A stretch of DNA of 64,000 nt from a candidate division FCPU426 bacterium (GTDB lineage Bacteria > Oederibacteriota > JAAXVQ01 > JAUVAV01), in NCBI GenBank assembly GCA_040756875.1, contig JBFLYH010000001.1, positions 672,001 through 736,000 on the forward strand. The letters run 5' to 3'. The notes beneath the pieces were generated by a model, which was given only the letters and a program-made list of their open reading frames with translations, searched no databases and was not told the origin of the DNA. The position numbers and the translations under genes are program-made. Positions 8,298 through 23,506 of the stretch are shown here, in pieces (within the stretch, counting starts at the first letter, position 1; the number at the start of each line of letters is the position of its first letter).

Positions 8298-9554
8298 ATG
8301 AACAAATGGTCCGGCCTGCTGGGGCGCTTCGGCGCTTACGGTTTTTTCAAGGAACTGGTCTTTTTCGAACCCTTCCTGATCCTGTTCCTGCGCGGGCAAG
8401 GGCTTTCGTTTTTCGCCATCGGCGTCCTGATCGCAACGCGCGAACTGACGACCACGCTGGCCGAGATCCCCACGGGCGTGGCCGCGGATTTGTGGGGGCG
8501 CCGCCGGGCGCTCGTGGCCTCCTTTGCCAGCTTCATCCTCAGCTTCCTGTTTTTCTATTTCAGCCGTTCGTTCGCCGGTTTTTTCCTGGCCATGATGTGG
8601 TTCGGGCTGGGCGAAGCCTACCGTTCAGGCACGCATAAAGCCATGATCCTGGAATATTTGGACCTGCGCCCCGGGGAGGGCCTCAAGGCGGTCACGGCAT
8701 TTGCCTTTGTGCGGGCCTGGTCGCAGATCGGCGCTGCGCTGTCCGCCGTGCTGGCCGCGGCCTTCGTTTTTTGGCAGAGCAACTACCGCGTGGTGTTTCT
8801 GGCCAGCGTCTGGCCGTACATTTTCGGGGGCCTGCTGGTGATGACCTATCCGCGGGAACTGGACGGAGAGCGCGCCCGGAAGGGGACCTGGAAAGCCTGG
8901 TGGCAGTTCACGGTTGATTCCACGCGGCATTTCTTCGAACAGCCCGCGCTGCGGCTGGGGCTCATCAACAGCGCGCTGGACAAAACCCTCTACAAAACCA
9001 GCAAGGATTACCTGCAACCCGTGATCGCGGCCAGCGCCCTGGGGCTGCTGCCGTTTTTACCCGGGCTCCTGCCCCGGGCGACCGTGCCGCAGGTCGTGGC
9101 CGTGGCCGCGGCTGTCATTTACCTGGGGCTGTATCTCGGCAGCGCCCTGGCTTCGAGCCTGAGCGGAAAAATGGAAGCTTTTCTCGGCGGGGAACCTCGG
9201 GCGCTCAACCGCACGTATTTCGGCTATCTGGCGGCGTTTCTTACGGCCCTGCTGGCCCTGCCCGCGGGATGGTGGTGGGCCGTGGTGGCCGCTTTCTGGG
9301 CGATCAGCGCGCTCCAGAATGCGCGCCGCCCCATGATCCTTTCCTATCTGGGCCTGTATATGGAGCGGAGCGAACGCGCGACCATGCTGTCCGTGGAAAC
9401 CGTGATCCAAACCCTGATGACCATGGTCCTGGCGCCTGTCATCGGCGCGCTGGTGGACGCCTTCGGGCTTGGCGCCGTGTTTGCGGCGGGAGTGGCGGTT
9501 TTCGGCCTCGCGGGCTGGGTGGTGCGGCTGCGGGCTGAGGGGCCTAGAGTTTAG
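8298..9554 (+). CDS. MFS transporter
   Basis: About 12 hydrophobic segments; EIPTGVAADLWGRRR motif A. Confidence 0.9.
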   Translation: MNKWSGLLGRFGAYGFFKELVFFEPFLILFLRGQGLSFFAIGVLIATRELTTTLAEIPTGVAADLWGRRRALVASFASFILSFLFFYFSRSFAGFFLAMMWFGLGEAYRSGTHKAMILEYLDLRPGEGLKAVTAFAFVRAWSQIGAALSAVLAAAFVFWQSNYRVVFLASVWPYIFGGLLVMTYPRELDGERARKGTWKAWWQFTVDSTRHFFEQPALRLGLINSALDKTLYKTSKDYLQPVIAASALGLLPFLPGLLPRATVPQVVAVAAAVIYLGLYLGSALASSLSGKMEAFLGGEPRALNRTYFGYLAAFLTALLALPAGWWWAVVAAFWAISALQNARRPMILSYLGLYMERSERATMLSVETVIQTLMTMVLAPVIGALVDAFGLGAVFAAGVAVFGLAGWVVRLRAEGPRV

Positions 9555-10011
9555 CTTTGAGGTCCAACAAGGCCAGGAAGTGTTTGCGCTCTTCGGCGAT
9601 GATGGCGTCGAGCGGGTTTTCACGGCGCGTCAGCAAGAGCGGGCGGGTTTCCTGATAGAAGTGGATGGAGTCCAGCTCGCGCTGGAGCGCGAATGCAATG
9701 GCCGCGTGGACGTCATTGGCCGCGGCCCGGGCCGCGGTTTCCGGGTTGGGGAAAATGACGTTCTTTACGAAGGCGCTGACGTATTCGAGCATTTCCTGCG
9801 GATAACTCTCAAGCGAAGGCCGGTCGGCCAGTTGGGACATCAGCCCGGCAAACGTCTCGCGGTGCTTCACTTCTTCGTCCGCGAGGTGGGTGAAGAGGTC
9901 GGCCGCCTGCTTCTCTTTCGTCTGCTTCGCGGCCAGCCGGTAAAACGCCTCGCCGCGCTCCTCGATCATCACGGCGGCTTTCAGGATCTCCTGGGGGCTA
10001 AGCACGTTCAT
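9544..10011 (-). CDS. ferritin/rubrerythrin-like diiron protein
   Basis: IEERGEAFY, DEEVKH, ELDSIHFY, EERKH four-helix EXXH pattern. Confidence 0.88.
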   Translation of the reverse strand: MNVLSPQEILKAAVMIEERGEAFYRLAAKQTKEKQAADLFTHLADEEVKHRETFAGLMSQLADRPSLESYPQEMLEYVSAFVKNVIFPNPETAARAAANDVHAAIAFALQRELDSIHFYQETRPLLLTRRENPLDAIIAEERKHFLALLDLKAKL

Positions 10012-10519
10012 GGTGTTCCTCCTTGCCGATAGTCGGATGTGCCGTTCTCAGGCATTCCGCCAGCTGTTCCACGGTTTCGGCGACTGCCGGACTGAGGCCG
10101 CTGTCCCATTCCAGGGACGCGGGCTGGATGACCAGCAGCCAGATTTTTATTCCCGGCACACGGGCCGACCAGTAGGCGGCCGCCAGATCGAGCGAAAGCG
10201 CGTGGGTGGAAAGCCCGCCGGCCCTGAGCGACTCCGCGTCCACGATCCAGGCGTCGCCCGGATGGCCGCCCCACTCGGCCGCATCCGCCAAAATCAGGGT
10301 GTCCGGACGCGCGGCGACTACTTTTTCCAGATGGTTTTCCGGAGCCACGCCGGCGTCCGCAGCCTGCCAGCGCCCATGGTCTGCCAGGCGGCTGATCAAA
10401 GCCGGGCCTGCGCCGTCGTCCCCGCGCTGGACATTGCCGATGCCCAGCCAGAAAATCCTGCCTGCCAGGCGCGGCCGGAGTTCGTGTTCCCAGAAATAAT
10501 TCAGCCTGTCAGACTGCAA
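9998..10519 (-). CDS. hycI: hydrogenase maturation endopeptidase (HycI-like)
   Basis: GIGNVQRGDDGAG, APEN, DAA, STHAL. Confidence 0.9.
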   Translation of the reverse strand: MQSDRLNYFWEHELRPRLAGRIFWLGIGNVQRGDDGAGPALISRLADHGRWQAADAGVAPENHLEKVVAARPDTLILADAAEWGGHPGDAWIVDAESLRAGGLSTHALSLDLAAAYWSARVPGIKIWLLVIQPASLEWDSGLSPAVAETVEQLAECLRTAHPTIGKEEHHERA

Positions 10520-11120
10520 GGGCGGTCGCCCTCCGGCAGCGGGGACACTGGATCGTCAGGTGCTGGCCGCGGTGCGGCGCATCCGGATCCGAGGCCACGG
10601 GGTCGGAAACCACGGCCAGGTCCTTGAGCGTGACCAGCATCAGGGTCGAATTGGCGAACGCCAGGGGCCCCAGGCGCCGGATGACCCAGCGCAGCTGGGC
10701 GACCGGCGCGATCACGCAGCCGCAGGCTTCGCACAGCAGCAGCTCCTTTTCCACGCTTTCCTCAAAATCCGCGGGTTTGAAACCGGCGAAGTCGAACTCG
10801 TTGGTCAGGCGGATGCCTTTCTCGGTGGTGCAGTACCGCTCGCACTGGCCGCAGCAGATGCAGGAATCAAGGTGCTGGACCAGGCGGCGCCGGGGCGGCC
10901 GGGCGCTGACGTCGTCCGTCACGTCGATGCAGCGCGCGGGGCAGACTTCGGCGCAGGCGCCGCAGCCGATGCAGTCTTCGGACTGGTAGCGTGGGCGGCC
11001 GCGGAACGAGGGCTGGGCGGTGTACGGCTCGGCCGGGTAGCGGGTGGTGAACGGCGGCGAGAACAGCGCTTTAAGCGCCGTCTTGAGGATCCGGGGCTGC
11101 AGCAGGGCGGGCAGCTTCAT
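10509..11120 (-). CDS. NuoI/MbhN-like 2x[4Fe-4S] subunit with extra Cys pairs
   Basis: FTTRYP..FRGRP, CIGCGACAEVCP, CICCGQCERYC, CEACG, CPRC. ATG at 11120 overlaps the upstream stop. Confidence 0.9.
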   Translation of the reverse strand: MKLPALLQPRILKTALKALFSPPFTTRYPAEPYTAQPSFRGRPRYQSEDCIGCGACAEVCPARCIDVTDDVSARPPRRRLVQHLDSCICCGQCERYCTTEKGIRLTNEFDFAGFKPADFEESVEKELLLCEACGCVIAPVAQLRWVIRRLGPLAFANSTLMLVTLKDLAVVSDPVASDPDAPHRGQHLTIQCPRCRRATALAV

Positions 11121-11443
11121 GGCTGGTCCTCGGCCAGGTCGTCGCGCACGCTGTGGGACCACAGCTGGATGCCCGCGGCGTGCGCGCCTTTGGCCAGCGC
11201 GTCGGCCGCGGTGGGCGAGGTGATGAGGATGAAGAGCAGGCACAGGGCGCTTTGCACCACGGCCGGCCAGGAGTTCACCAGGAGCATGGTGCCGATCAGG
11301 ATCATGCAGGTGCCCATGGTCACGCATTTCGTGGCCGCCTGCAGGCGGTTGTAGAGGTCGGGCAGGCGCACCAGGCCCAGGCAGCCGATCAGGTCAAAGA
11401 GCACCCCGACCACCAGCGCGGACATTCCCAGGATTTTAATCAT
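11117..11443 (-). CDS. mnhG: Mrp/Mnh subunit G (MbhC-like)
   Basis: GLVRLPDLYNRLQAATK, TSPTAA. Confidence 0.9.
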   Translation of the reverse strand: MIKILGMSALVVGVLFDLIGCLGLVRLPDLYNRLQAATKCVTMGTCMILIGTMLLVNSWPAVVQSALCLLFILITSPTAADALAKGAHAAGIQLWSHSVRDDLAEDQP

Positions 11444-11705
11444 CGAACCCCCTGCCTTCCAGGTGCTTGGCCAGGGCCAGGGTGCCGATGAAGCTGAGCA
11501 GGGCCCAGGAAATGGCCACGTTGAGGAAATAGGTCTTGCCGGTGCTCACGGCCAGCAGGGCCGTGAACCCCACCACCACGATGCCCAGCATGTCGATGGC
11601 CACGGTGCGGTCCGGCGGCGTGGGACCGCGCCAAATGCGGTACAGGCAGAACGCCCCGCAGAGGAGCAGCCCGAAAAACAGGAAGCTGAAGAACCAGGAA
11701 ACCAT
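11436..11705 (-). CDS. mnhF: Mrp/Mnh subunit F (MbhB-like)
   Basis: RIWRGPTPPDRTVAID, LSFIGTLALAK. Confidence 0.9.
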   Translation of the reverse strand: MVSWFFSFLFFGLLLCGAFCLYRIWRGPTPPDRTVAIDMLGIVVVGFTALLAVSTGKTYFLNVAISWALLSFIGTLALAKHLEGRGFDD

Positions 11706-11730
11706 AGGGGACTCCTTTCGCGATCCGGCG

Positions 11731-12255
11731 CTATTCGAAAACCCGGCGGATCAGCGCTTCGTAGCGGCCGATGGTGCGGCGCCTGAATTCCTCCTGGTCA
11801 TGGCCCAGGATATTCATCCAATGCACATAGAAGGTCCCGTCGGGCAGGACCTCCACGGTCAGCGTGCCCGGCGTGAGCGTGATGGAATTGGCCAGCACGG
11901 TCAGCGCGGTCTCGGTTTTGAGCGTGGATTTCACTTTCACGATGCCAGGGTGAATCGGGATCTTGGGGTGCAGCACGCGGTAGGCCACGTCGAAATTGGC
12001 TTTGACGAGGTGGTAAAGAAACACGGCCAGGTAGACCATGAACCAGAAATAGCGCACCGGATTGAGCAGGCGGCCGAAGAGCTGCACGGAAAATTCCCGC
12101 ATGACCAGGGCCACCAGCGCAGCCACGCCCAGGCCCACGTAGATGTCCTCGAGCCTGACCTGCCCGGGTTCAGGGCCGAACGGCCAGACCAGGAGCAGCC
12201 ACAGGGCGAAAGAAATCAGGAAGAGCGTTACGCGTTTCCACACGGCCAGTCCCAT
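11731..12255 (-). CDS. mnhE: Mrp/Mnh subunit E (MbhA-like)
   Basis: KANFDVA, HPGIV, LANSITLTPGTLTV, VHW. Confidence 0.92.
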   Translation of the reverse strand: MGLAVWKRVTLFLISFALWLLLVWPFGPEPGQVRLEDIYVGLGVAALVALVMREFSVQLFGRLLNPVRYFWFMVYLAVFLYHLVKANFDVAYRVLHPKIPIHPGIVKVKSTLKTETALTVLANSITLTPGTLTVEVLPDGTFYVHWMNILGHDQEEFRRRTIGRYEALIRRVFE

Positions 12256-12257
12256 GG

Positions 12258-13724
12258 TCAAGGCACCCAGAATCCTTTCTGCAGGGCTGCGGCAGCCGGC
12301 TCGATCAGCCACGGCTGCGCCAATCCGGGAATCACCGCCAGGGCGGACGCGATGCACGCCAGGGCCAGCAGGACCATGGCCGCGCCCATCAGCCAGGGCG
12401 TCCGCGCGGGAGGGGCGTCCGCGCCCTTGCCCTGCGGCCCCCCGAAAAAGGCGTAGCGCTGGACTTTCAGGAACGAGGCCAACGTCAGGATGCTGACCGC
12501 GATCGCCCAGGTTCCCAGCCAGTAATGCCCGCTTTCCACGCAGGCCAGGATGATGATCAGCTTGCTCCAAAAACCGTTGAAAGGCGGAATGCCCGCGATC
12601 GAAAGGGAGGCGATCAGGGACGTGCGGGCCGTGACCGGCAGGGCCCGGTGCAGGCCGCCCAGTTCGTGCAAGTCGCGCGTGCCGGTGGAATACTCGACAG
12701 CGCCCGCGTTCAGGAACAGGAGGGATTTGAACAGCGAGTGGTTAAGCAGGTGGTACAGCGCGCCGACCGCGCCCAGGGGCGTTCCCAGGCTCAGCCCCAG
12801 CACGACATATCCGATCTGGCTGATGCTGTGATAGGCGAACAGCCGCTTCATGTCCCACTGGCCGATGGCCAGGAGCACGCCCACGACCATCGAGAGCACG
12901 GCCAGGCCCTGGAAGATCAGCAGGAGCCGGGGCGCGGGGCCGAAAACATTGAAAATCAGCCGGGCCAGCACGTACACGCCGATGGCCTTGATCAGCACGC
13001 CCGAGAGCATGGCCGAAATCGGGGCCGGCGCCGCGGGATGGGCGTCCGGGAGCCAGGCATGGAAGGGGACGATGGCGCTTTTCACGGCCAGTCCGCTGAT
13101 AAACAGGGCCAACGCGAACAGCACCGGCTGTCCGGCGGGCAGGCTGCGCAGTTTGACGGCGATCTGGCCGAGGTGCAGCGAGCCGGTCAGGGCGTACAGC
13201 AGGCCGATGCCCAGCAGGATCAGGAGCGTGGCCAGGCTGCCCTGGATCAGGTATTTGAAGGACGCTTCCAGCTGCTCCTGGTCGCCCCCGAACGCCACCA
13301 GCGCGTACGAGGCGATGGACGAGAGTTCCACGAAGATATACAAGGTGAACAAATCGTTGGCCAAAACGACGCCGTTCATGCCCGCGATCATGCACAGGAA
13401 CAGGGTGTAATAGCGGAGTTTGGAAGTGTACTGGCGCATGTAGGCGGTCGAGTACATGGCAATCGCCATCCCGACGCCGTTGATGATAAGGAGCAGCAGC
13501 GCGGTCAGGCCGTCCAGGCGGAGCTCAATGCCCAGGGGCACGGGCCAGGCGCCGAGCTGGACGAAGCCGCTGCGGCCGAGGCAGCGGACCGCCATAAGGG
13601 CCAGGGCCAGCAGAGCGGCATTGCCCAGCAGGTCCGGCAGCAGACGCCACCAGCGGCCGACCAGGGGCAGCAGAAAAGCCGTTCCCAGGGGAATCAGAAT
13701 GAAGAGGGGCAACCAGTCCAGCAC
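12258..13724 (-). CDS. mnhD: MrpD/MbhH-like antiporter-type membrane subunit
   Basis: LYIFVE, KSAIVPFHAWLPDAH, KRLFAYHSISQIGY, NHSLFKSLLF, GIPPFNGFWSK. Confidence 0.92.
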   Translation of the reverse strand: MLDWLPLFILIPLGTAFLLPLVGRWWRLLPDLLGNAALLALALMAVRCLGRSGFVQLGAWPVPLGIELRLDGLTALLLLIINGVGMAIAMYSTAYMRQYTSKLRYYTLFLCMIAGMNGVVLANDLFTLYIFVELSSIASYALVAFGGDQEQLEASFKYLIQGSLATLLILLGIGLLYALTGSLHLGQIAVKLRSLPAGQPVLFALALFISGLAVKSAIVPFHAWLPDAHPAAPAPISAMLSGVLIKAIGVYVLARLIFNVFGPAPRLLLIFQGLAVLSMVVGVLLAIGQWDMKRLFAYHSISQIGYVVLGLSLGTPLGAVGALYHLLNHSLFKSLLFLNAGAVEYSTGTRDLHELGGLHRALPVTARTSLIASLSIAGIPPFNGFWSKLIIILACVESGHYWLGTWAIAVSILTLASFLKVQRYAFFGGPQGKGADAPPARTPWLMGAAMVLLALACIASALAVIPGLAQPWLIEPAAAALQKGFWVP

Positions 13725-14071
13725 TAGCCTCTGAGCCTCCTTAATTCCTTGATGTTGATAGTGTGGTGGCGTTCATAGATGCGGATGGTCAGGGCGACCA
13801 TCAGGATCAGAAGCCCCAAGCCGATCACGATGGAGGTGAGGACCATGGCCTGGGGCAACGGGTCCACCGCGCGGCCCGCGAAAGCGGCCAGGTCTTCGCC
13901 GGCTTTCATCACCGGAGGCTCGCCACCCTGGCGGTAGCCGGTCAAAATCAGGAACAGGTGCACGCCCGCCTCCATGATCACGAACCCGATGATCATTTTC
14001 ACCAAATTGCGCTTGAGCAGCAGGCCGTAAAGGCCCACGCCGACCAGGAACAGGCTGAGAATGTACAGCAT
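13724..14071 (-). CDS. mnhC: Mrp/Mnh subunit C (MbhG-like)
   Basis: NLVKMIIG, VDPLPQAMVLTSIVIG. Confidence 0.92.
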   Translation of the reverse strand: MLYILSLFLVGVGLYGLLLKRNLVKMIIGFVIMEAGVHLFLILTGYRQGGEPPVMKAGEDLAAFAGRAVDPLPQAMVLTSIVIGLGLLILMVALTIRIYERHHTINIKELRRLRG

Positions 14072-14072
14072 G

Positions 14073-14555: not shown

Positions 14556-14575
14556 CGAACCGCCTCCTTGGGCCC

Positions 14576-15151: not shown

Positions 15152-15152
15152 G

Positions 15153-16964
15153 TCATCCTCGCAGCAAAAACAGCATTACCACCAGGCCGAACAGGACCCA
15201 GGTGAGGTACCAGGGCAGGCGGCCGGTGTGAAGTTCTTTCAAGGCTTCGGAAAAATACATGACCAGGCCCGTACCCACGGCGTACAGGTCGAAATACTTC
15301 TTTTCCGCCAGGCGGTAAGCCGCGGCCAAAGGCGGCAGATCGGAAACGGTCCGGTAAAAATCAACGCCGGTAAGCTGCACGGCTTCGTCGTCCAGGGTTT
15401 CGCCGCCGATATAAGTGGCGGCCTCGCGCACCCGGCCGATGCGGGTGAAGACATACATCAGCAGTCCGGCTGCCATGGCCGCGAGCAGCAAAGCTGTGGC
15501 CGGGCCTGCCCACCACAGCCCCGGAGCGGACACGGGCGCGGATAAGGACGGAAAGATGAAGAGCGGCAGCGGCAGCCGGAACGCCGCCACGCCGAAGGCC
15601 ACGCAGCCGGCGGCCAGCAACACCACGGGCAGAATCATGCGCCAGCCGGCTTCGCGGGCTGTGGGGGCCGAGCCGGTCCGGCGGAGAAAGACGCTGTGCA
15701 GAACCTTCACGAAGCTCGCCAGGGTCAGGGCCGAACCGAACATGGCCACGGCCAGCCAGACCACCCACCACGCGCCGCCGCGGCCGCCCAGTTCGATGAG
15801 CCCCTGGTAGATCATCCACTTGGAGGCGAAACCGTTCAAGGGTGGCAGGCCTGAGATGGCCAGCGAGGCGACCAGGGTGGACAGGAAAGTCAAGGGCATG
15901 ACTTTGGCGAGTCCGCCCAGCCGCTCCAGGTCCGTGGTGCCGGCCTGGGTTTCGACGTTGCCCGCGCAGAGAAAGAGGCAGGATTTATACATGGCGTGGT
16001 TCAGCATGTGGAACAGACCGCCGGCCAGGCCCAGGGGCAGGCCGGTGCCGATGCCCAGCAGCATATAGCCCACCTGGCTGACCGCATGGTAGGAAAGCAG
16101 GCGTTTGAGATCGTGCTGCACGAGGGCCATCATCACGGCAGCCAGCACGGTGGCCGCGCCCACGGCCAGCAATACGAATTGCATGGCGCCATTGAGCTGA
16201 AAGAGGCCGGTGGAGGCGCGGAAAAGCAGGTAGATGCCCAGAAGTTTGTCCAGGGAAGCGGGCAGAAAGGCCGTCACCGGCGCGTCCGCGTGTTCGCCGA
16301 AATCCGGCACCCAGGTGTGCAAGGGCATGGCCCCGGCTTTGGCAAAGGCCGCGAGGGCGAAGGCGAGAAAAGCGGTGTGGCTCACCGCGCCGGAGAGCGG
16401 AATGGCCGGGCCATCCAGCCGCAGGGAACCGGTCAGGTGCCAGATCAGGCCGATGCCCAGGAGCAGCACGGCATCAGAGCCGCCGACCAGGATGAAGCTT
16501 TTTTTGGCGGCCGCAGCGGCCTGGGGGCCGCGCAGGGAAATCAAGAGATAGAGCGTGACGCCGAGAAACCCCCAGAACACCAGCAGCAAGATAAGGTCGT
16601 TCGCCAGCACGGCGCCGTTCGCGGCGCCCAGGGTGGCCAGCAGATATCCGTAATACTCGCGGTGCTTGGCGGGCCGCGGGAGGTAACCCCAGGAATAGAA
16701 CGCGATCAGGAGAGTAAAAGCCGAGACGACCAGCATGACAAAGGCGCTGAGGTGGTCGAGCCTGAACGCCAAAATGCCGGCCAGGTCCAGTTTGGCGGCC
16801 CCCCCGGCAAACAGCGTCCACGCCAGCCACGTCACGCCCGCGGCCAGCGCCACCGCCAGGAGCGGAGCCAGGCGGGACAGGAAGCGGGGCAGCAGCAGGC
16901 ACAGCGCGGCGCCCGCCAAGGGCAGCGCGACCGGCCAGAGCAGCGGATGAATTTCAATCGGCAT
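15153..16964 (-). CDS. NuoL/MrpA/HyfB-like large antiporter-type subunit
   Basis: KAGAMPLHTW, DLKRLLSYHAVSQVGY, NHAMYKSCLF, GLPPLNGFASKW, long C-terminal helix ending HTGRLPWY. Confidence 0.92.
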   Translation of the reverse strand: MPIEIHPLLWPVALPLAGAALCLLLPRFLSRLAPLLAVALAAGVTWLAWTLFAGGAAKLDLAGILAFRLDHLSAFVMLVVSAFTLLIAFYSWGYLPRPAKHREYYGYLLATLGAANGAVLANDLILLLVFWGFLGVTLYLLISLRGPQAAAAAKKSFILVGGSDAVLLLGIGLIWHLTGSLRLDGPAIPLSGAVSHTAFLAFALAAFAKAGAMPLHTWVPDFGEHADAPVTAFLPASLDKLLGIYLLFRASTGLFQLNGAMQFVLLAVGAATVLAAVMMALVQHDLKRLLSYHAVSQVGYMLLGIGTGLPLGLAGGLFHMLNHAMYKSCLFLCAGNVETQAGTTDLERLGGLAKVMPLTFLSTLVASLAISGLPPLNGFASKWMIYQGLIELGGRGGAWWVVWLAVAMFGSALTLASFVKVLHSVFLRRTGSAPTAREAGWRMILPVVLLAAGCVAFGVAAFRLPLPLFIFPSLSAPVSAPGLWWAGPATALLLAAMAAGLLMYVFTRIGRVREAATYIGGETLDDEAVQLTGVDFYRTVSDLPPLAAAYRLAEKKYFDLYAVGTGLVMYFSEALKELHTGRLPWYLTWVLFGLVVMLFLLRG

Positions 16965-16973
16965 GGTTCGCCT

Positions 16974-18188
16974 TCACGCAGGGAGTTTCGGGCCTTCGGA
17001 CCCGAGCAGTCTTTTCAGCCGTTCCGTTTTTTGCTGCGACAGCCTGATCAAGTCGTCGGCCGACCATTGGCGCTGGTCCGTGCCGGCCTTCACGGCGGCC
17101 AGGCGTTCGGTGCAGCAATAGCAGGGGTCCACAGCCGCCAGGATGATTGTGGCGTCGGCCACGCTGTGGCCGATCACCGCCTCGCGGTCGGTGATGACGT
17201 TCATATAGCTGGGGGCGCGGATTTTATGGCGCACCGGCCGGTTGCTGCCGTCGCTTTGGATGTAATGGAAGACTTCGCCGCGGGGCGCTTCGTAGTGTCC
17301 GATGCCTTCGCCGGCCTTGACTTCCTTGGGGTTGGAATCCACGGGCCCGGGCGTGGTGCGCAACCGTACCAGGCACTGCTCGATGATTTTGATGGATTCG
17401 AACATCTCCAGAATCCTGACCACGGCCTTGTCGAATACGTCGCCGTTGCCCGCGGTGATGACTTTCCAATCCACCAGGCCGTAGGCCGCGTGCGGATGGT
17501 CGCGGCGGACGTCGATATCCACGCCCGATGCGCGGGCCGTGGGGCCGAGTGCGCCGTAAGCGAGGATTTGCTGGCGGGTCAGCACGCCCACGCCCTTGGT
17601 CCTGGCCTGGAGCACCGGGTCCTCGGCCACGGCCCGGTGGAACAATTGCAAGGGGCCTTTCAGCCCGTCCAGCATGGCCTGGATCTTGGGAATGTCCTCG
17701 GGTTTGATGTCGCGGCGGACCCCGCCGGCTTTCATGATGCCGTAATGGTTGCGGTTGCCGGTGATGAGCTCCAGGATGTTGAGCAGGTCCTCGCGGTGGC
17801 GCCAGACCCACATCCAGATGGTGTTGAAGCCGAGGAAGTGGCCGGCCAGCCCCAGCCACAGCAGGTGCGAGTGCAGGCGCTCCAGCTCGCCGATGACGGA
17901 GCGGATGTACAGGGCGCGTTCCGGCACTTCGATGTCGCCCGCGTCCTCGATGGCCTGCACGCAGGCCAGGGGATGGGAAGTGGAGCAAATGCCGCAGATG
18001 CGCTCGACCAGGAACACCGTCTGGTCGTAATGCTTGGACTCGGACAGTTTTTCGATGCCGCGGTGGTTGTATCCCAGCTCGATGTCGAGGCCCACCACGG
18101 TTTCGCCCTCCACGTGCAGGCGGAAAAATTCCGGCTCCTCCTGCAAGGCGTGATAGGGTCCAATGGGGATGATGGTTTTTTTAGTCAT
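16974..18188 (-). CDS. group 4 [NiFe] hydrogenase large subunit
   Basis: GPYH, GYNHRGIEK, L1 ERICGICSTSH, ELERLHSHL, EAPRGE, RAPSY, L2 DPCYCCTER plus a 42-aa C-terminal extension. Confidence 0.95.
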   Translation of the reverse strand: MTKKTIIPIGPYHALQEEPEFFRLHVEGETVVGLDIELGYNHRGIEKLSESKHYDQTVFLVERICGICSTSHPLACVQAIEDAGDIEVPERALYIRSVIGELERLHSHLLWLGLAGHFLGFNTIWMWVWRHREDLLNILELITGNRNHYGIMKAGGVRRDIKPEDIPKIQAMLDGLKGPLQLFHRAVAEDPVLQARTKGVGVLTRQQILAYGALGPTARASGVDIDVRRDHPHAAYGLVDWKVITAGNGDVFDKAVVRILEMFESIKIIEQCLVRLRTTPGPVDSNPKEVKAGEGIGHYEAPRGEVFHYIQSDGSNRPVRHKIRAPSYMNVITDREAVIGHSVADATIILAAVDPCYCCTERLAAVKAGTDQRQWSADDLIRLSQQKTERLKRLLGSEGPKLPA

Positions 18189-18654
18189 GGGCGTCCGCCG
18201 GTTTGGGGTATTCCGCTTTTTTATAATCCCGGCGCAGGGGGTATTGCCCCTCGGGCCAGTCTTCCTTGAGCAGCAGGTGGGCCAGGCCGGGATGGTTGCG
18301 GAAGTTGATGCCGAGCAGCTCCCACATCTCCCGCTCGATCCATTCCGCCGCCTTCAACACCGGGGTCAGGGAGTCGATTTCGGGCCGCGTCCGGTCCAGT
18401 CGGACGCGCACGGTCAACAGGCAATCCGAAGCGTCGAAGGCCCAATGATAGAGGATCTCCATCGCTTCCAGCAGGTCGATGCCGCTGGCGATTTGAAAGC
18501 GCGCGCCCAGGCCGTCATATAGCAGGCGGGCGACTTCGACGATGTGCTCCGGCGCCACCTCCACGAACAGGCGTTTGGGGGATTTGACGTGCCAGCGCAG
18601 CAGTTTGGCCCCCAGTTCGGTTTGCAGGCGGGGCAGGATCTCTTCACGGTTCAC
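18181..18654 (-). CDS. NuoC/MbhK-like subunit
   Basis: AEWIEREMWELLGINFRNHP...YPLRRD. Confidence 0.92.
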   Translation of the reverse strand: MNREEILPRLQTELGAKLLRWHVKSPKRLFVEVAPEHIVEVARLLYDGLGARFQIASGIDLLEAMEILYHWAFDASDCLLTVRVRLDRTRPEIDSLTPVLKAAEWIEREMWELLGINFRNHPGLAHLLLKEDWPEGQYPLRRDYKKAEYPKPADAHD

Positions 18655-18657
18655 GGT

Positions 18658-19080
18658 TCAGGCGCTCCTCAGTTTGGTCAGCAGTTTGACGATGCCCGCG
18701 ATCATGGCCTCGGGTTTGGGCGGACAGCCGGGGATATAGGCGTCGATCGGGATATAGCGCCCCACCGGTTGGTCCCAATTGTAAGAATCCTTGAACATCA
18801 GTCCGCTGCAGGCGCAGCCGCCGATGGCCACGACCACGACCGGCTTGGGCGCCTGCTCGTACACGAGCTTGGCGCGCAACGCCGATTTTTTATTGAATAC
18901 CCCGGACAAGAGGATCACGTCCGCGTGGCGGATGCTGCCGACCAGGACCAGGCCGAAGCGTTCCAGATCGTATTTGGGCGTCAGCGCGTCCAGGATTTCG
19001 ATGTCGCAGTTGTTGCAGGCGCTGCCGGCCATGTGGAAGACGTTCAGGGAGCGAGTGAGGATCTGAAGGGCGAGCCCCAT
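18658..19080 (-). CDS. hydrogenase small subunit (NuoB/MbhJ-like)
   Basis: ACNNCDIE, RHADV, GGCACSG, IPGCPPKPE. Confidence 0.95.
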   Translation of the reverse strand: MGLALQILTRSLNVFHMAGSACNNCDIEILDALTPKYDLERFGLVLVGSIRHADVILLSGVFNKKSALRAKLVYEQAPKPVVVVAIGGCACSGLMFKDSYNWDQPVGRYIPIDAYIPGCPPKPEAMIAGIVKLLTKLRSA

Positions 19081-19081
19081 G

Positions 19082-20014
19082 TCACCACCCTCCCAGGGCC
19101 AGGCCGACGGCGACAGCAGCCGCCACGGTCAATGGCCCCCAGAAAAATTTGACCGCCTGATCGATGCGCACGCGGGGCGCGGTGTTGCGGATCAGGGTGA
19201 GCACGATCACGATCCCCAGGTATTTCGCGATGCCGGCCGCCAGGCCGGCCCAGCCCTGCTGCAGCCCCATTCCGCCCCCGAACAGGGCCACGAGAAAGAC
19301 CGGCAGGGTGAACAGCATCATGGCCTTGGTCAGTTTAAAGAGCGCCAGCGGCACGCCGGAATACTCGATGTAGGCGCCGCCGGTCAGTTCGGTCTCAGCT
19401 TCCGGCAGGTCGAAGGGAACCTGCGTCAGCTTGGCCTGGATGCAAAAAACCGAGACCAGCAGGGCGATGACGCCCGAGGCGGCCAGGGCCGAGGGTTCTA
19501 CGGCCAGAATATCGCCGAGACGCAGGCTCTTGGCCCGAATGACCGGCACCAGCACGGCCAGGACGAACGGAAGCTCGTATCCCATGACCAGCTTCATCTC
19601 GCGGCTGCCGCCCAGCGACGCCAGGGGATTGCGGGAGGAGAAGGCGCCCAGCACGGTCCCGACCGCGGGCATGGTCAGCAGATACAGCAGCACGATCACG
19701 TCGCCCACGAAGCCCTGGTGGGGGGCCAGCTGGGAGCGCCAGATGATCGTGGACGCCAGGGTCACCGCGCCCAGCCCCAGGAGCGGCGCGGACAGGAAGA
19801 GCCATTTGGCGCCACCGGCCGGGACGATGGTTTCCTTGATCAGCAGCTTCAAGAAGTCGTACCAGGGCTGCAGGAAAGGCGGCCCGACGCGCATCTGCAC
19901 GCGCGCGGTCACCTTGCGGTCGATCCAAGACGTCACCAAGCCGGCCGAGGCCGTAAAGAGCAGGCCCGGGAAAACCAGCACTTGCGCCAGCCAGTGGAGA
20001 TAGTCCGTGGTCAT
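19082..20014 (-). CDS. NuoH/MbhM-like membrane subunit
   Basis: DRKVTARVQMRVGPP, QPWYDFLKL, PFDLPEAETEL..G..IEYSG, PRVRIDQ. Confidence 0.93.
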   Translation of the reverse strand: MTTDYLHWLAQVLVFPGLLFTASAGLVTSWIDRKVTARVQMRVGPPFLQPWYDFLKLLIKETIVPAGGAKWLFLSAPLLGLGAVTLASTIIWRSQLAPHQGFVGDVIVLLYLLTMPAVGTVLGAFSSRNPLASLGGSREMKLVMGYELPFVLAVLVPVIRAKSLRLGDILAVEPSALAASGVIALLVSVFCIQAKLTQVPFDLPEAETELTGGAYIEYSGVPLALFKLTKAMMLFTLPVFLVALFGGGMGLQQGWAGLAAGIAKYLGIVIVLTLIRNTAPRVRIDQAVKFFWGPLTVAAAVAVGLALGGW

Positions 20015-20017
20015 CGC

Positions 20018-20506
20018 TTACACCGCCTGCTTGACCCAGCGCGGGGCGCGCACCAGCAGGTGTTCGCCGAGGGCAAAGACGCCCTGCGCCTCATTGGGTT
20101 CCTGATCGGTCATCTGAATCGCCTGCCGGCAGCAGCTGGACAGGCACTGCGGGTCCGCGCCGGGCTGCTGGCTCCGGCACATTTCGCACGGAACGACGAA
20201 GTAGGGCAGCGTGTCCGGATAGATCGTGCCGAACGGACAGGCATGCGAACAGCTCTTGCAGCTGACGCAGCGGAGATTGTAGCGTTTCATCAAGCCGTCC
20301 GCCTGGCGCTCCAGGGCTTCGAAACGGCAGGCGGCCACGCAATTCGGCTCTTCGCAGCGCCGGCACAAAAAGGCGAAATAAGCCAGTTCGCGCAAGGTCA
20401 GGATGCCCTGGTGGGCCAGGCGGGGCGTGTACAGGCGGCCGCACTGAACCGAGCATTCCTCGCACGTTTCGCATTGGGCCAGGTCAACCAGCAAACGTTT
20501 GGGCAT
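20018..20506 (-). CDS. four-cluster Fe-S protein (DmsB/CooF/HycB-like)
   Basis: CETCEECSVQC, CRRCEEPNCVAAC, CVSCKSCSHACP, CEMC..PQCLSSC. Confidence 0.88.
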   Translation of the reverse strand: MPKRLLVDLAQCETCEECSVQCGRLYTPRLAHQGILTLRELAYFAFLCRRCEEPNCVAACRFEALERQADGLMKRYNLRCVSCKSCSHACPFGTIYPDTLPYFVVPCEMCRSQQPGADPQCLSSCCRQAIQMTDQEPNEAQGVFALGEHLLVRAPRWVKQAV

Positions 20507-20524
20507 GCGTGTTAAGCCGCAGGG

Positions 20525-21349
20525 TCAATCCCAGATCTGCGGCAGCTCCTTTATCTGGCTGTAGGCGAAAACCGGGCCTTCCTTGCAGGCGTAGAAGGTG
20601 CCCAGGCGGCAATGGCCGCATTTGCCCACGCCGCAACTCATGTTTTTTTCCATGGACAGATAAATGTTCTCGGGCGCCACGCCCAGTTGCAGCAGTTTCA
20701 GGGTGGCGAATTTCATCATGATGGGCGGACCGCAGACGATTGCCACGCCCTGATCCGGATGAAACGCCAGCTGGTCGGGTTCCAGAATGGTCGTCACCAC
20801 GCCCTGGCGGCCTGACCAGGTGTCGTCCCCTTTGTCCACGGTCACCTGGACATCCAGCTGGTTCCTGTCCCAGGCCGAGGCCAGGGCGTTTTTATACACG
20901 ATGTCCTTGGGCGTCCGCGCGCCGTAACGCACGAACACTTTGCGGTATTGATCCAGATTCTCAAATAGGGCGAAAAGCAGGGCGCGCAGGGGCGCCAGCC
21001 CCACGCCGCCGCCGACGATCAATACTTCGCGCCCGCGGAATTTGTCCAGGGGATACGCCTTGCCCAGCGGGCCGCGGATGCCGATGGTCGCGCCCGGCTG
21101 CAGCGCGTGGATCTTCTGGGTCACCAGGCCTGCGCGCATGATGGTGATTTCCAGCTTGTCCTTCACCGCCGGGGAAGAGGAGGGCGTGAACGGCGCTTCG
21201 CCCACGCCGGGGATGGTAAGTTCGACGAACTGCCCGGCCAGAAAAGGAATGGGTTCGGCCGGGCGCAGGCAGAAAGTCTTGATGGTGGGCGTCTCCTCGC
21301 TGACGGCTTCCACGCGGGCTGAAACCGGCAAATACAGTCGGGAGCTCAT
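20525..21349 (-). CDS. FAD/NAD(P)-binding [2Fe-2S] oxidoreductase (AsrB/HydG/FlxA/PyrK family)
   Basis: GQFVEL..PGVGEAP, RGPLG, GGGVGLAP, CGPPIMM, EKNMSCGVGKCGHC..YAC. Confidence 0.92.
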   Translation of the reverse strand: MSSRLYLPVSARVEAVSEETPTIKTFCLRPAEPIPFLAGQFVELTIPGVGEAPFTPSSSPAVKDKLEITIMRAGLVTQKIHALQPGATIGIRGPLGKAYPLDKFRGREVLIVGGGVGLAPLRALLFALFENLDQYRKVFVRYGARTPKDIVYKNALASAWDRNQLDVQVTVDKGDDTWSGRQGVVTTILEPDQLAFHPDQGVAIVCGPPIMMKFATLKLLQLGVAPENIYLSMEKNMSCGVGKCGHCRLGTFYACKEGPVFAYSQIKELPQIWD

Positions 21350-22371
21350 GCCAGGGCCTTTCTCAGCACGTCGCGGATGTCGATTCTGCCCGTGCAGGCT
21401 TCGGCGCACCGTCCGCAGCCGTCGCAGGCGTAGCGGCCCAGGAGCGCCGGAAAGAAGTTGAATTTTTTATCGAACCTATTGTACAGCCGCTCGGTGCGGT
21501 GCGCGCGGGGGTTGGCGCCGCCGGCCACGCGGGCGAAATTCTTGTGCAGGCAGGAATCCCACTGCTTCAAACGCCCGGGCGCCTGGTCCGAAGAACGGCC
21601 GTCGCGCAAAAGAAAGCAATGGCAGGTGCAACAGATGTAGTTGCAGGCGCCGCACTCCACGCAGTCCGCCGCGAATTCTTTCCAGAAGTCCGCTTCCTCG
21701 GTTTTGACGACAGCCTGCCTCAGATCCTGGCCGGGTCGCAGGCCGCGGCTTTCGGCCTGGCCGGCCACGCGGTGGTACAACGCTTGGCGGTTTTGATCGC
21801 GCTGCCGCAACCGTTCATCGGCGGGGGCGGCAAGCGCCGGCTTGAAGGAGGCGATCAAGGCTTGGCCGCGTTCCGATCCGGGTTCGACCACGCAACCGTT
21901 CTCCAGCACCGACAGATTCACGTCGAATCCGGCCTTGGGATACGGCTGCTCTCCAACCGCCGGACAGAAGCAGGATTCGCGGCAATCGGTGCAATCGCAG
22001 GAAACAATCAGCGTTTGTTCGCGCAAGCGCGCGTAATAGGGGTCGACCGGTTCGTTTTTCAAAAAAACGAAATCGTGTATCGCCAGCGCGGAAAGATCGC
22101 AGTTTTTAACGCCAATCACGACGCGGGGGGTAAGGTCAGCGGGTTGAACGGCTTGAAACACCGGGCCGAGCGTCTCGCGGGGAGGGAAAACCAGCGCTTT
22201 CAAAGGTTCCAAAGGACGGTAGCGGTCAAGCACATGGCGGTTGGGGTCCCAGGCGGTTGTGCGTTCGAGATGCAATTGATCGTTTTCGGAAGCAGAAGCA
22301 AAAACCGTTCGGCCTGAGGTCAGGTGAGCGATGAAGGAATCCCGATGCGCTTGAGGAAGCCAAAAAAGCAT
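21346..22371 (-). CDS. [4Fe-4S] protein (AsrA/HydB/FlxB family)
   Basis: GVKNCDL, DPYY, CRESCFC, CVECGACNYICCTCHCF, WDSC, CDGCGRCAEAC. Confidence 0.92.
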   Translation of the reverse strand: MLFWLPQAHRDSFIAHLTSGRTVFASASENDQLHLERTTAWDPNRHVLDRYRPLEPLKALVFPPRETLGPVFQAVQPADLTPRVVIGVKNCDLSALAIHDFVFLKNEPVDPYYARLREQTLIVSCDCTDCRESCFCPAVGEQPYPKAGFDVNLSVLENGCVVEPGSERGQALIASFKPALAAPADERLRQRDQNRQALYHRVAGQAESRGLRPGQDLRQAVVKTEEADFWKEFAADCVECGACNYICCTCHCFLLRDGRSSDQAPGRLKQWDSCLHKNFARVAGGANPRAHRTERLYNRFDKKFNFFPALLGRYACDGCGRCAEACTGRIDIRDVLRKALA

Positions 22372-22435
22372 CCGTTCAGTCCATCTCGAGATGTGATCGG
22401 CTTGCTGTGGGTTTGGAGGAAAAAGCGTTCATGAC

Positions 22436-22463
22436 ATTATATTTTTTTACTTAAATAAATCAA
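22436..22463 (-). promoter_or_regulatory. sigma70-type promoter for the hydrogenase structural operon
   Basis: Minus strand TTGATT-N16-TATAAT in the AT-rich gap between hypE and the AsrA-like gene. Confidence 0.6.
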
Positions 22464-23504: not shown

Positions 23505-23506
23505 GC

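What the first reader, a model, noticed from the sequence alone, without database searches (positions are those of the whole stretch)
9544..22463. Mrp/Mbh-type group 4 [NiFe] hydrogenase co-encoded with an NAD(P)H-diaphorase module
Seen: 18 tightly coupled genes on one strand in the order AsrA-like, AsrB-like (FAD/NAD(P), 2Fe-2S), four-cluster ferredoxin, NuoH, B, C, large subunit (both Ni-binding CxxC motifs intact), NuoL-like, MbhDE, MnhB, C, D, E, F, G, NuoI, protease, ferritin-like. Established: Pyrococcus Mbh and Ech couple ferredoxin to H2, whereas the AsrAB/HydBG/FlxBA pair normally serves soluble group 3b hydrogenases, Asr or Flx-Hdr. Inference: this complex may link H2 and NAD(P)(H) directly to an ion gradient, either by H2 oxidation to NAD(P)H or by gradient-driven H2 evolution from NAD(P)H. 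That would make it a complex I analogue with a non-NuoEFG input. Related clusters may exist in other uncultured bacteria; I know of no biochemical characterisation.
Basis: partly seen in the sequence, partly recalled or inferred. Interest (0 to 1): 0.8.

Follow-up and report, generated by a model that had tools for sequence, protein, structure and literature searches.

The report
Known "Hun" membrane hydrogenase operon

Summary
Observation confirmed. Eighteen co-directional, tightly packed genes (9544-22371, minus strand) encode HunA-P, a HycI protease and a ferritin-like protein. HunG keeps both Ni-binding motifs (CGIC, DPCYCC). hypABFCDE lie directly upstream.

HunA and HunB are full-length homologues of the beta and gamma subunits of the NADPH-oxidising P. 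furiosus hydrogenase I (PDB 9nez; E 3e-31 and 7e-52). This pair plus a HycB-like ferredoxin precede hunG in 51 of 51 related loci with enough upstream DNA, from MAGs labelled as many phyla. No other [NiFe] hydrogenase, AsrA-like gene or siroheme sulfite reductase was found in the genome.

The architecture is already in print: "Hun" (10.1101/536078), "Mbh-Mrp-oxidoreductase type" (10.1101/765248) and Saganbacteria (PMC6349859). NADH or NADPH as a partner was floated in PMC6469976 and PMC13582414. This scan met the same design at least eight times on other DNA. My searches found no biochemistry.

Verdict: a new member of a known, uncharacterised kind. NAD(P)H coupling is plausible (about 0.55) and untested.

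The parts
22436..22463 (-). sigma-70-like promoter candidate in the 116-nt hypE-hunA gap
   Evidence: TTGATT-16-TATAAT, 10 of 12. It is the only minus-strand site in 9000-23000. A consensus match only.
21346..22371 (-). hunA: AsrA/HydB-like iron-sulfur subunit (341 aa)
   Evidence: Pfam Fer4_22. PDB 9nez_B sulfhydrogenase 1 beta, E 3.2e-31 over residues 5-340. 14 invariant Cys in 54 homologues.
20525..21349 (-). hunB: AsrB/HydG-like FAD, NAD(P) and [2Fe-2S] subunit (274 aa from the ATG that overlaps the hunA stop)
   Evidence: Pfam FAD_binding_6, NAD_binding_1 and DHODB_Fe-S_bind. PDB 9nez_C sulfhydrogenase 1 gamma, E 7.2e-52. GGxGxxP, CGP and Cx4Cx2C present in 60 of 60 sequences.
20018..20506 (-). 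hunC: HycB/CooF-type ferredoxin with four Cys groups (162 aa)
   Evidence: Pfam Fer4_11. PDB matches to HycB (7z0s_B, 3e-08), HDCR HycB3/4 and the 8c0z_C adaptor. Cys positions.
19082..20014 (-). hunD: NuoH/MbhM-like membrane subunit
   Evidence: Pfam NADHdh, 9.4e-66.
18658..19080 (-). hunE: NuoB-like hydrogenase small subunit
   Evidence: Pfam Oxidored_q6. Cys22, Cys25, Cys89/91 and Cys119 available for one [4Fe-4S].
18181..18654 (-). hunF: NuoC-like subunit
   Evidence: Pfam Complex1_30kDa.
16974..18188 (-). hunG: group 4 [NiFe] hydrogenase large subunit (404 aa)
   Evidence: Pfam Complex1_49kDa and NiFeSe_Hases. CGIC and DPCYCC motifs. Closest solved chains are MbhL 6cfw_L (5.7e-82) and HycE 7z0s_E (2.7e-77).
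15153..16964 (-). hunH: NuoL/MrpA-like antiporter subunit (603 aa)
   Evidence: Pfam Proton_antipo_M and Proton_antipo_N.
14576..15151 (-). hunI: MbhD+MbhE-like subunit
   Evidence: Pfam MbhD and MbhE.
14073..14579 (-). hunJ: MnhB-like subunit (start codon uncertain)
   Evidence: Pfam MnhB on the longer ORF 14073-15029. Homologues align from about 14579.
13724..14071 (-). hunK: MnhC/NuoK-like subunit
   Evidence: Pfam Oxidored_q2.
12258..13724 (-). hunL: MnhD/NuoM-like antiporter subunit (488 aa)
   Evidence: Pfam Proton_antipo_M.
11731..12261 (-). hunM: MnhE-like subunit (start codon uncertain)
   Evidence: Pfam MNHE, 9.7e-41.
11436..11705 (-). hunN: MrpF-like subunit
   Evidence: Pfam MrpF_PhaF.
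11117..11443 (-). hunO: MnhG-like subunit
   Evidence: Pfam PhaG_MnhG_YufB.
10509..11120 (-). hunP: NuoI/HycF-like 2x[4Fe-4S] subunit (start codon uncertain)
   Evidence: Pfam Fer4 families. Best solved match is HycF 7z0s_F (1.5e-18), ahead of MbhN 6cfw_N (4.9e-12).
9998..10519 (-). hycI: large-subunit C-terminal maturation protease
   Evidence: Pfam HycI. NCBIfam hydrog_prot 95.7 bits, above its cut-off of 47.45. Follows hunP in 30 of 46 related loci with room.
9544..10011 (-). Ferritin-like (rubrerythrin-fold) protein with no Cys; a lineage-specific accessory
   Evidence: Pfam Rubrerythrin, 2.9e-11. Found after hunP in 1 of 44 named loci and in relatives G001 and G011.
22488..28335 (-). hypA, hypB, hypF, hypC, hypD, hypE: the full [NiFe] maturation set directly upstream on the same strand
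   Evidence: Pfam HypA, cobW/HypB, HypF domains, HypD and AIRS (HypE). NCBIfam HypC for 24628-24870.

Best explanation
The locus is a complete hun operon (hunA-P) followed by hycI and a ferritin-like gene, and preceded by hypABFCDE. It encodes the only [NiFe] hydrogenase found in a strictly anaerobic, uncultured groundwater bacterium.

Shown:
- A Mbh/FHL-like catalytic core: HunD, E, F, G and P, with an intact NiFe site.
- A full Mrp-type antiporter set: HunH-O, with two large antiporter-like subunits.
- A three-protein input arm. HunB has FAD-binding, NAD(P)-binding and [2Fe-2S] motifs. HunA carries iron-sulfur motifs. Both are homologous to the gamma and beta subunits of the NADPH-oxidising P. 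furiosus hydrogenase I. HunC is a HycB-like ferredoxin with four Cys groups.

Inferred mechanism:
- NAD(P)H exchanges a hydride with the FAD of HunB.
- Electrons then pass through the HunB [2Fe-2S] cluster, the HunA clusters, the HunC clusters, HunP and HunE to the NiFe site of HunG, where H+/H2 turn over.
- As in Mbh, that chemistry at the membrane interface is coupled to H+/Na+ movement through HunD and the Mrp module.

From standard potentials recalled from my own knowledge (-320 mV against -414 mV), NADH to H2 costs about +18 kJ/mol at 1 atm H2. The complex would therefore work in one of three ways. It could evolve H2 from NAD(P)H with energy conservation only at the very low H2 levels of sediments and groundwater. 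It could spend the ion gradient to push H2 out. Or it could run backwards as an H2:NAD(P)+ reductase that builds a gradient.

Confidence that this is a Hun operon is about 0.95. Confidence that NAD(P)(H) is a physiological partner is about 0.55. The figure below is for the whole statement.
For: - Gene content and order.
- NiFe motifs and cleavable tail. CGIC and DPCYCC are present in 77 of 77 HunG sequences (the window plus 76 loci).
- HunB against 9nez_C, E 7.2e-52; HunA against 9nez_B, E 3.2e-31 over its full length.
- The FNR-type motifs GGxGxxP and CGP and the Cx4Cx2C cluster motif are present in 60 of 60 HunB sequences. The stretch PGVGEAPFTPSS is at least 80-95% conserved. Such conservation is not expected if the flavoprotein were a mere wire.
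- hunA+B+C lie upstream of hunG in 51 of 51 loci with at least 4.7 kb of upstream DNA; 29 of the 80 loci lacked room. All 16 genes are present in 31 of 32 loci with room.
- The same order holds in all 4 relatives that carry the orthologue.
- The 3 full-length Mbh-type paralogue loci of relatives (39-44% LSU identity) carry no hunABC. Two relatives, G005 and G006, hold both Hun and such an Mbh-type cluster, which argues that the two are not redundant.
- HunP resembles HycF, which binds an adaptor, more than MbhN, which binds ferredoxin (1.5e-18 against 4.9e-12). HunC resembles HycB.
- No alternative partner in the genome: one PF00374 hit, one Fer4_22 gene, no NIR_SIR.
- Published support: co-transcription of the hydrogenase with the adjacent oxidoreductase in Atribacteria, and 'ferredoxin or NADH' as donors (PMC6469976, passage read). 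SHI-beta/gamma homologues beside Mrp-linked group 4 clusters were read as an NADP+/NADPH branch (PMC13582414, section 16 read).
Against: - My paper searches found no enzymology, purification or genetics for any Hun complex.
- The authors who named Hun assign reduced ferredoxin as donor to HunABC (10.1101/536078, section 8).
- HunC, or HunP, could itself take ferredoxin.
- NAD(P)H to H2 is uphill at standard conditions (own knowledge).
- This genome shows no Rnf/Nqr match yet has three PFOR-type genes. Ferredoxin re-oxidation therefore needs an outlet, and Hun could be it.
- The genome also has three [FeFe] hydrogenase genes, two of them next to NuoF-like genes. These may already handle NADH.
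- I could not decide NADH against NADPH specificity from sequence.
- Physical attachment of HunAB to the core was not tested, because the complex predictor was unavailable.
Confidence: 0.55

Rival explanations
1. Ferredoxin-only Hun, the published model. Reduced ferredoxin from PFOR-type enzymes donates to HunABC. These act purely as an iron-sulfur wire to the NiFe site, and H2 evolution pumps ions as in Pyrococcus Mbh. The FAD/NAD(P) fold of HunB would be vestigial or structural.
For: - Proposed in 10.1101/536078, section 8.
- HydDB lists group 4g as putatively ferredoxin-coupled (PMC5037454, passages read).
- The genome has 3 PFOR-type genes and no Rnf/Nqr match.
- HunC is a polyferredoxin of the kind that can accept ferredoxin electrons.
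Against: - The nucleotide- and flavin-binding motifs of HunB are kept in 60 of 60 sequences from MAGs labelled as many phyla.
- Its closest solved relative oxidises NADPH (reference to Xiao et al. 2025 seen only as a citation in PMC13582414).
- Ferredoxin-type Mbh clusters in relatives do without hunABC.
Confidence: 0.2
2. Three-way redox hub. The arm accepts both ferredoxin (at HunC or HunP) and NAD(P)H (at HunB). The complex then either confurcates both onto H+, or lets ferredoxin electrons leave as H2 (ion-coupled) or as NAD(P)H, depending on H2 pressure. That would replace the Rnf that is missing here.
For: - No Rnf/Nqr match in a genome scored 100% complete.
- A branched iron-sulfur network, with a bifurcation/confurcation role, was proposed from AlphaFold models for related clusters that also carry an Fdh-like protein (PMC13582414, section 16).
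- HunC has four Cys groups, more than a linear wire needs.
Against: - The PyrK/HydG-type FAD is not a known bifurcating site (own knowledge of NfnSL).
- Pfam recognised no second flavin-binding domain in the arm.
- This window has no Fdh-like gene.
- No experimental data.
Confidence: 0.17
3. Sulfur-linked enzyme. HunAB act as a sulfur/polysulfide or sulfite-related reductase module (as sulfhydrogenase or Asr), using H2 or the ion gradient.
For: - The beta/gamma relatives belong to an enzyme named sulfhydrogenase.
- PMC6469976 mentions 'and/or reduce sulfur compounds'.
- HunA and HunB match the AsrA/AsrB models.
Against: - AsrA and AsrB scores are far below the equivalog cut-offs (121 against 323; 208.5 against 288.6).
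- No siroheme NIR_SIR protein was found anywhere in the genome.
- The large subunit keeps a full NiFe site and has a dedicated protease and hyp genes.
Confidence: 0.04
4. Neighbours only. HunAB serve a soluble partner encoded elsewhere (group 3b hydrogenase, Asr, Hdr/Flx) and sit beside the hydrogenase by chance or for co-regulation.
For:
Against: - 51 of 51 synteny across MAGs labelled as many phyla.
- A 4-nt hunA/hunB overlap and gaps of 3-18 nt on to hunD.
- Only one AsrA-like gene and one [NiFe] hydrogenase in the genome.
- According to that note, the Hdr-like operon has its own NADPH module.
Confidence: 0.04

Closest known systems
Hun Ni-Fe hydrogenase-Na+/H+ antiporter supercomplex, hunA-P (Glass et al., bioRxiv 10.1101/536078; abstract, section 8 and matching passages read; figures and Table S5 not seen)
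   Same: - 16 genes in the same order.
- HunAB are AsrAB-like and AsrC is absent.
- HunC is a ferredoxin.
- HunG carries the CGIC and CYCC motifs.
- Mrp-like HunH-O, with HunP last.
   Different: - Here hycI and a ferritin-like gene are appended, and hypABFCDE lie directly upstream.
- The host is a high-GC groundwater lineage, not one of those named in the passages I read.
- The paper assumes ferredoxin as donor. I favour NAD(P)(H).
'Mbh-Mrp-oxidoreductase type' group 4 hydrogenases of Elusimicrobia (10.1101/765248) and the 'enigmatic' Saganbacteria RX5A cluster with cooF, asrA and asrB (PMC6349859); passages read, supplementary figures not seen
   Same: Hydrogenase plus Mrp-like subunits plus an AsrA/AsrB/CooF-type oxidoreductase module. 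The function is stated as unknown.
   Different: The Saganbacteria cluster also has a molybdopterin oxidoreductase, which this window lacks.
Group 4b clusters with SHI-beta/gamma homologues and an Fdh-like protein (Front Microbiol 2026, PMC13582414; section 16 read; Supplementary Figure 1B not seen)
   Same: Antiporter-linked group 4 hydrogenase with homologues of the NADPH-oxidising SHI beta/gamma pair. An NADP+/NADPH branch was proposed.
   Different: Those clusters include an Fdh-like subunit and, in part, selenocysteine. I did not establish whether their large subunits belong to the HunG clade.
Pyrococcus furiosus membrane-bound hydrogenase Mbh (PDB 6CFW; HydDB group 4d)
   Same: Closest solved large subunit (E 5.7e-82). 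NuoH-, NuoB-, NuoC- and NuoI-like core. Mrp-derived membrane subunits. Ion-coupled H2 evolution is the model for the coupling.
   Different: - Mbh takes ferredoxin directly and has no HunABC.
- Gene order differs.
- Hun has two large antiporter-like subunits.
- Mbh-type paralogues in relatives share only 39-46% LSU identity.
Pyrococcus furiosus soluble hydrogenase I (sulfhydrogenase; group 3b; PDB 9NEZ/9NF0)
   Same: HunA and HunB are full-length homologues of its beta and gamma subunits.
   Different: The catalytic pair is group 4 and membrane-bound, not group 3b. NCBIfam HydA scores 26 bits against a cut-off of 880, and HunA/B fall far below the HydB/HydG and ShyB/ShyC cut-offs.
E. coli formate hydrogenlyase (PDB 7Z0S)
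   Same: The HunC/HycB, HunP/HycF and HunG/HycE likeness suggests the same way of docking an input module through a polyferredoxin.
   Different: The input enzyme is a flavoprotein pair, not formate dehydrogenase. A full Mrp module is present.

Membership tests
Hun supercomplex operon (Glass et al.) | 16 genes hunA-P in the published order: AsrAB-like, ferredoxin, NuoH/B/C/D-like, antiporter-like and Mrp-like genes, NuoI-like last | tested here: met
   compared with section 8 of 10.1101/536078
Hun supercomplex operon (Glass et al.) | HunG metal-site motifs CGIC and CYCC | tested here: met
   RICGICSTSH and DPCYCCTER; present in 77 of 77 clade members
Hun supercomplex operon (Glass et al.) | AsrC absent from the operon | tested here: met
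   No such gene in 9544-22371; no NIR_SIR match in the whole genome
Hun supercomplex operon (Glass et al.) | HydDB assignment of HunG to group 4g | not testable with these tools
   HydDB is not on hand. Tree: the HunG clade sits on a long branch apart from the Mbh-type paralogues.
Mrp-Mbh type group 4 [NiFe] hydrogenase (P. furiosus Mbh, group 4d) | Group 4 large subunit with both CxxC motifs, a NuoB-like small subunit, and Mrp-like membrane subunits | tested here: met
Mrp-Mbh type group 4 [NiFe] hydrogenase (P. furiosus Mbh, group 4d) | Ferredoxin as direct donor, with no added oxidoreductase module | tested here: not met
   hunABC are always present (51 of 51). True Mbh-type loci of relatives lack them. 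The donor itself was not assayed.
Group 3b NAD(P)-linked hydrogenase / sulfhydrogenase | beta and gamma (HydB/HydG) subunits | tested here: inconclusive
   Clear homology, but scores are far below the NCBIfam equivalog cut-offs: 151/690 and 121/750 for HunA, 177/650 and 168/600 for HunB
Group 3b NAD(P)-linked hydrogenase / sulfhydrogenase | Group 3 large (alpha) and small (delta) subunits | tested here: not met
   The large subunit is NuoD/MbhL-like. It is the only PF00374 hit in the genome.
Anaerobic sulfite reductase AsrABC | AsrA and AsrB equivalogs plus the siroheme subunit AsrC | tested here: not met
   AsrA 120.8 bits against 323; AsrB 208.5 against 288.6; no NIR_SIR in the genome
Respiratory complex I (Nuo) | NuoEFG NADH-input module and a quinone-reducing NuoD without a NiFe site | tested here: not met
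   No NuoE/F/G in the operon. The two NuoF-like genes lie elsewhere, beside [FeFe] hydrogenase genes. HunG keeps the NiFe cysteines.
FNR/PyrK-type NAD(P)H flavoprotein (HunB) | FAD-binding and NAD(P)-binding domains with GGxGxxP and CGP motifs, and a C-terminal [2Fe-2S] Cys motif | tested here: met
   Pfam domains above cut-off; motifs in 60 of 60 sequences. Cofactor and nucleotide binding themselves are not testable here.

The most novel reading that the evidence does not exclude
Hun is a reversible, Na+/H+-translocating NAD(P)H:H+ oxidoreductase, in effect a hydrogen-evolving complex I with a HydBG-type instead of a NuoEFG-type input. It would let fermenters in low-H2 sediments and aquifers conserve energy from NAD(P)H oxidation, or spend the ion gradient to vent NAD(P)H electrons as H2. 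If so, metabolic models that book this widespread enzyme as ferredoxin-dependent would be wrong.
Probability: 0.45. Interest if true: 0.7.

Novelty: new member of a known kind. Interest (0 to 1): 0.33.

Why it matters
The HunG clade is large. The best 80 all share at least 60% identity and come from MAGs labelled Omnitrophota, Planctomycetota, Elusimicrobiota, Fibrobacterota, Clostridia, Nitrospirota, Proteobacteria and others.

Published reconstructions book this enzyme as a ferredoxin-dependent Mbh (PMC8542988; 10.1101/536078). If NAD(P)H is the real partner, the energy and redox budgets of many uncultured anaerobes change. It would also give a second, independent solution to coupling pyridine-nucleotide oxidation to ion translocation.

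For this window the value is confirmatory. It adds a clean, complete copy with its own maturation genes in a genome scored 100% complete. It also adds counts that show the flavoprotein arm is an invariant part of the clade.

Tried and rejected
- Complex prediction of HunA with HunC (alignments A1 and A2) was not possible.
- Expression: no RNA holder listed. The only holder of the stretch is a DNA run marked as a possible source.
- The paper search for the SHI structure paper returned 0 papers. I know Xiao et al. 2025 only as a reference in PMC13582414.
- I expected the 3.8-kb insert between hunB and hunC in L056 to be the molybdopterin protein mentioned by Glass et al. Pfam shows a pilin-type N_methyl protein and two ORFs without matches, so none of my 80 loci documents that variant.
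- NADH against NADPH preference: the stretch after the second strand of the NAD domain (GART.KD) resembles both NADPH-using SHI-gamma and NADH-using NqrF in the alignments. No call can be made.
- HydDB classification could not be run.
- Chance or mis-annotation is rejected: every gene has a family match above its cut-off.
- A group 3b, Asr or second AsrA-like partner elsewhere is rejected for this genome.
- Assembly chimera as the cause of the AT-rich hypA/hypB is rejected, because the sister genome shows the same trough in synteny.
- Structure prediction, fold search, the search for homologous proteins, the search of protein representatives and the protein-atlas search were not used. The sequence matches to solved chains were already decisive for fold and family.

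Full report
**The observation**

- The large subunit (16974-18188) carries RICGICSTSH near the N-terminus and DPCYCCTER near the C-terminus. A tail of about 40 residues follows, of the kind a HycI-type protease removes. A HycI gene sits two genes before the end of the operon.
- The small subunit has the cysteines for one [4Fe-4S] cluster.
- The NuoI-like protein has two CxxCxxCxxxC motifs.
- The ferredoxin has four Cys groups.
- With my choice of start codons, gene junctions from hunA to the last gene lie between -14 and +25 nt. hunA and hunB overlap as ATGA.
- The 116-nt gap before hunA holds the only minus-strand promoter-like site found in 9000-23000. The scan as a whole is not above its shuffles (3 found, 2.1 expected).
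- Upstream on the same strand lie hypA, hypB, hypF, hypC, hypD and hypE.

**What the input arm is**

The two proteins called AsrA- and AsrB-like match the beta and gamma subunits of Pyrococcus furiosus sulfhydrogenase 1 (PDB 9nez). HunA matches with E 3.2e-31 over residues 5-340. HunB matches with E 7.2e-52. For HunA this is the only solved chain matched. For HunB the next hits are NqrF and PyrK, at 1e-20 to 1e-16.

NCBIfam places both proteins between the ShyB/HydB/AsrA models and the AsrB/HydG/ShyC models, always far below the equivalog cut-offs. They are a clade of their own within that superfamily.

In 60 HunB sequences (this window plus 59 loci), the motifs GGxGxxP, CGP and Cx4Cx2C are present in 60 of 60. 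The stretch around PGVGEAPFTPSS is at least 80-95% conserved. HunA has 14 invariant cysteines in 54 sequences.

The ferredoxin HunC resembles HycB, the HDCR HycB3/4 proteins and an aldehyde-oxidoreductase adaptor. The NuoI-like HunP resembles HycF of formate hydrogenlyase (1.5e-18) more than MbhN (4.9e-12). This points to an FHL-like way of docking an input module through a polyferredoxin. That step is inference. The complex predictor was not available.

**Linkage**

Among 41 genomes of the same phylum, orthologues of the large subunit (78-89% identity) occur in four besides the window's own. All four have the same gene order from hunA to hunP. In all 99 genomes held for the phylum, the Hun-type large subunit (E at most 1e-140) is in 5 of 99, all in one order.

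The best 80, at 60-81% identity, come from MAGs labelled as more than a dozen phyla.
- 51 of the 80 have at least 4.7 kb upstream of hunG, and 51 of those 51 carry hunA, hunB and hunC there. The other 29 lack the room.
- 32 have room for all 16 genes, and 31 have them. By the listing, the exception is L087, which lacks the Mrp genes.

These loci were chosen by likeness to HunG. The count therefore says that the arm is invariant within this clade, not within group 4.

The Mbh-type paralogues of relatives (39-46% identity) have the Pyrococcus-like order and no hunABC in the three full-length loci examined. Two relatives hold both kinds.

In a FastTree phylogeny the HunG clade sits on a long branch from those paralogues. 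The window groups with its four relatives inside a crown of mixed phylum labels. This fits one acquisition by this order followed by vertical descent.

**Genome context**

The genome (3.22 Mb, 7 contigs, completeness 100) shows:
- no heme-copper or bd oxidase match;
- three PFOR-type genes;
- no Rnf/Nqr match;
- three [FeFe] hydrogenase genes, two of them next to the only two NuoF-like genes;
- two further NuoD-like genes on another contig;
- one [NiFe] hydrogenase, which is this one;
- one AsrA-like gene, which is hunA;
- no siroheme sulfite reductase family member.

I did not check it.

**Mechanism**

The best-supported reading is a hydrogenase whose electrons enter or leave through a HydG-type flavoprotein. 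The path would be NAD(P)H, HunB FAD and [2Fe-2S], HunA, HunC, HunP, HunE, then the NiFe site. H+/H2 turnover would be coupled to H+/Na+ movement through HunD and a complete Mrp set with two large antiporter-like subunits.

The homologies and the linkage are shown. The order of the wire, the nucleotide, the direction and the coupling are inferred.

From standard potentials (own knowledge), NADH to H2 costs about +18 kJ/mol at 1 atm H2. It becomes favourable only at roughly 1e-4 atm or below, and earlier for a reduced NADPH pool. Three modes are possible: energy-conserving H2 evolution at very low H2, gradient-driven H2 evolution, or H2-driven NAD(P)+ reduction. I cannot choose between them.

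The main rival is the published ferredoxin model. The lack of Rnf alongside three PFOR-type genes speaks for some ferredoxin outlet. A mixed, three-way hub is a further possibility.

**Comparison with what is known**

The architecture is published.
- Glass et al. (10.1101/536078; abstract, section 8 and matching passages read) describe a 16-subunit complex 'Hun'. It has AsrAB-like HunAB, no AsrC, HunG with CGIC and CYCC, and a HydDB group 4g call. They report it in Atribacteria, Firmicutes, Omnitrophica, Elusimicrobia, Bacteroidetes and cultured Kosmotoga, and they assign ferredoxin as donor.
- Matheus Carnevali et al. (PMC6349859, passages) call a Saganbacteria cluster with cooF, asrA and asrB 'enigmatic'.
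- Meheust et al. (10.1101/765248, passages) name a 'Mbh-Mrp-oxidoreductase type' of unknown function.
- Bird et al. (PMC6469976, passage) report co-transcription with the oxidoreductase in Atribacteria and write 'ferredoxin or NADH'.
- A 2026 paper (PMC13582414, section 16) links SHI-beta/gamma homologues beside group 4 clusters to an NADP+/NADPH branch.
- Williams et al. (PMC8542988, passages) book the Omnitrophota enzyme as group 4g, ferredoxin-driven.

I could not see the figures or supplements of these papers. They may show gene maps that bear on the identity of the clades.

Eight of the nine paper searches that ran found no purification or assay of such a complex. The ninth sought the SHI structure paper and returned nothing. 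The scan's own notes list at least eight earlier reports of the same design on other DNA, with the same conclusion.

**Verdict**

The locus is a further member of a known but biochemically untested family. What is particular to this copy is minor: hycI plus a Cys-free ferritin-like gene at the 3' end, and the hyp set directly upstream. The ferritin-like gene was seen after hunP only in this lineage, in 1 of 44 named loci plus relatives G001 and G011.

Noticed in passing
window 26800-29600 (hypB 27143-27796, hypA 27796-28335): There is a deep local GC trough. hypA is 20% GC and hypB 32%, while hypF is 50% and hypD, hypE and hun are 61-64%. The sister genome G001 shows the same trough over its syntenic hypB/hypA (20-26% at hypA) and the same neighbouring MCP gene. 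It is therefore a real, conserved feature and not an assembly chimera. The cause is unexplained.
   Followed up: partly
window 28336-38000: About 10 kb of lower GC (mean 43%, with a second dip to 31% near 36000-36800) lies next to the hyp genes and includes an MCP gene at 29465-30727. The content was not examined further.
   Followed up: no
L087:4086-12681 (MAG labelled Auribacterota): A Hun-clade locus with hunA, hunB, a TPR protein, hunC, D, E, F and G, then directly hunP and hycI. It has no Mrp or antiporter genes although the contig continues. This is an Ech-like minimal variant of Hun.
   Followed up: partly
L056:3378-6850 (MAG labelled Nitrospirota): A 3.8-kb insert lies between hunB and hunC. 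It encodes a pilin-type N_methyl protein and two ORFs (668 and 310 aa) with no Pfam match.
   Followed up: partly
L033, L034, L097: Gene-order variants in which the NuoI-like gene follows hunG directly and hycI comes after hunO.
   Followed up: no
G005 (L021 and L022) and G006 (L020 and L023): Two relatives carry both a Hun operon and a separate Pyrococcus-like Mbh cluster (mnhE-F-G...B-C-D, nuoB-C-D-H-I, hycI) without hunABC.
   Followed up: partly
L027:5104-15049 (G037, same phylum): An AsrA/AsrB-like pair (31% and 38% identity to HunA and HunB) sits next to a distant [NiFe] large-subunit match (23% identity), and is followed by an Ech-like cluster (40% LSU identity). This may be a group 3b hydrogenase beside a group 4 one.
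   Followed up: no
G000:C1:281498-284352 and C1:1362042-1365030: The only two NuoF-like genes of the genome each lie about 2 kb from an [FeFe] hydrogenase gene, as in HydABC-type enzymes. A third [FeFe] hydrogenase gene is at C1:39946-40839.
   Followed up: no
(HunG tree): HunG sequences 73-81% identical to the window's come from MAGs labelled Victivallales, Chitinispirillaceae, Latescibacterota, Planctomycetota, Anaerolineaceae, Kiritimatiellia, Gemmatimonadota and several Proteobacteria. Within the window's own phylum only 5 of 99 genomes have it. The 13-kb operon appears to move between phyla as a unit. MAG labels were not verified.
   Followed up: partly
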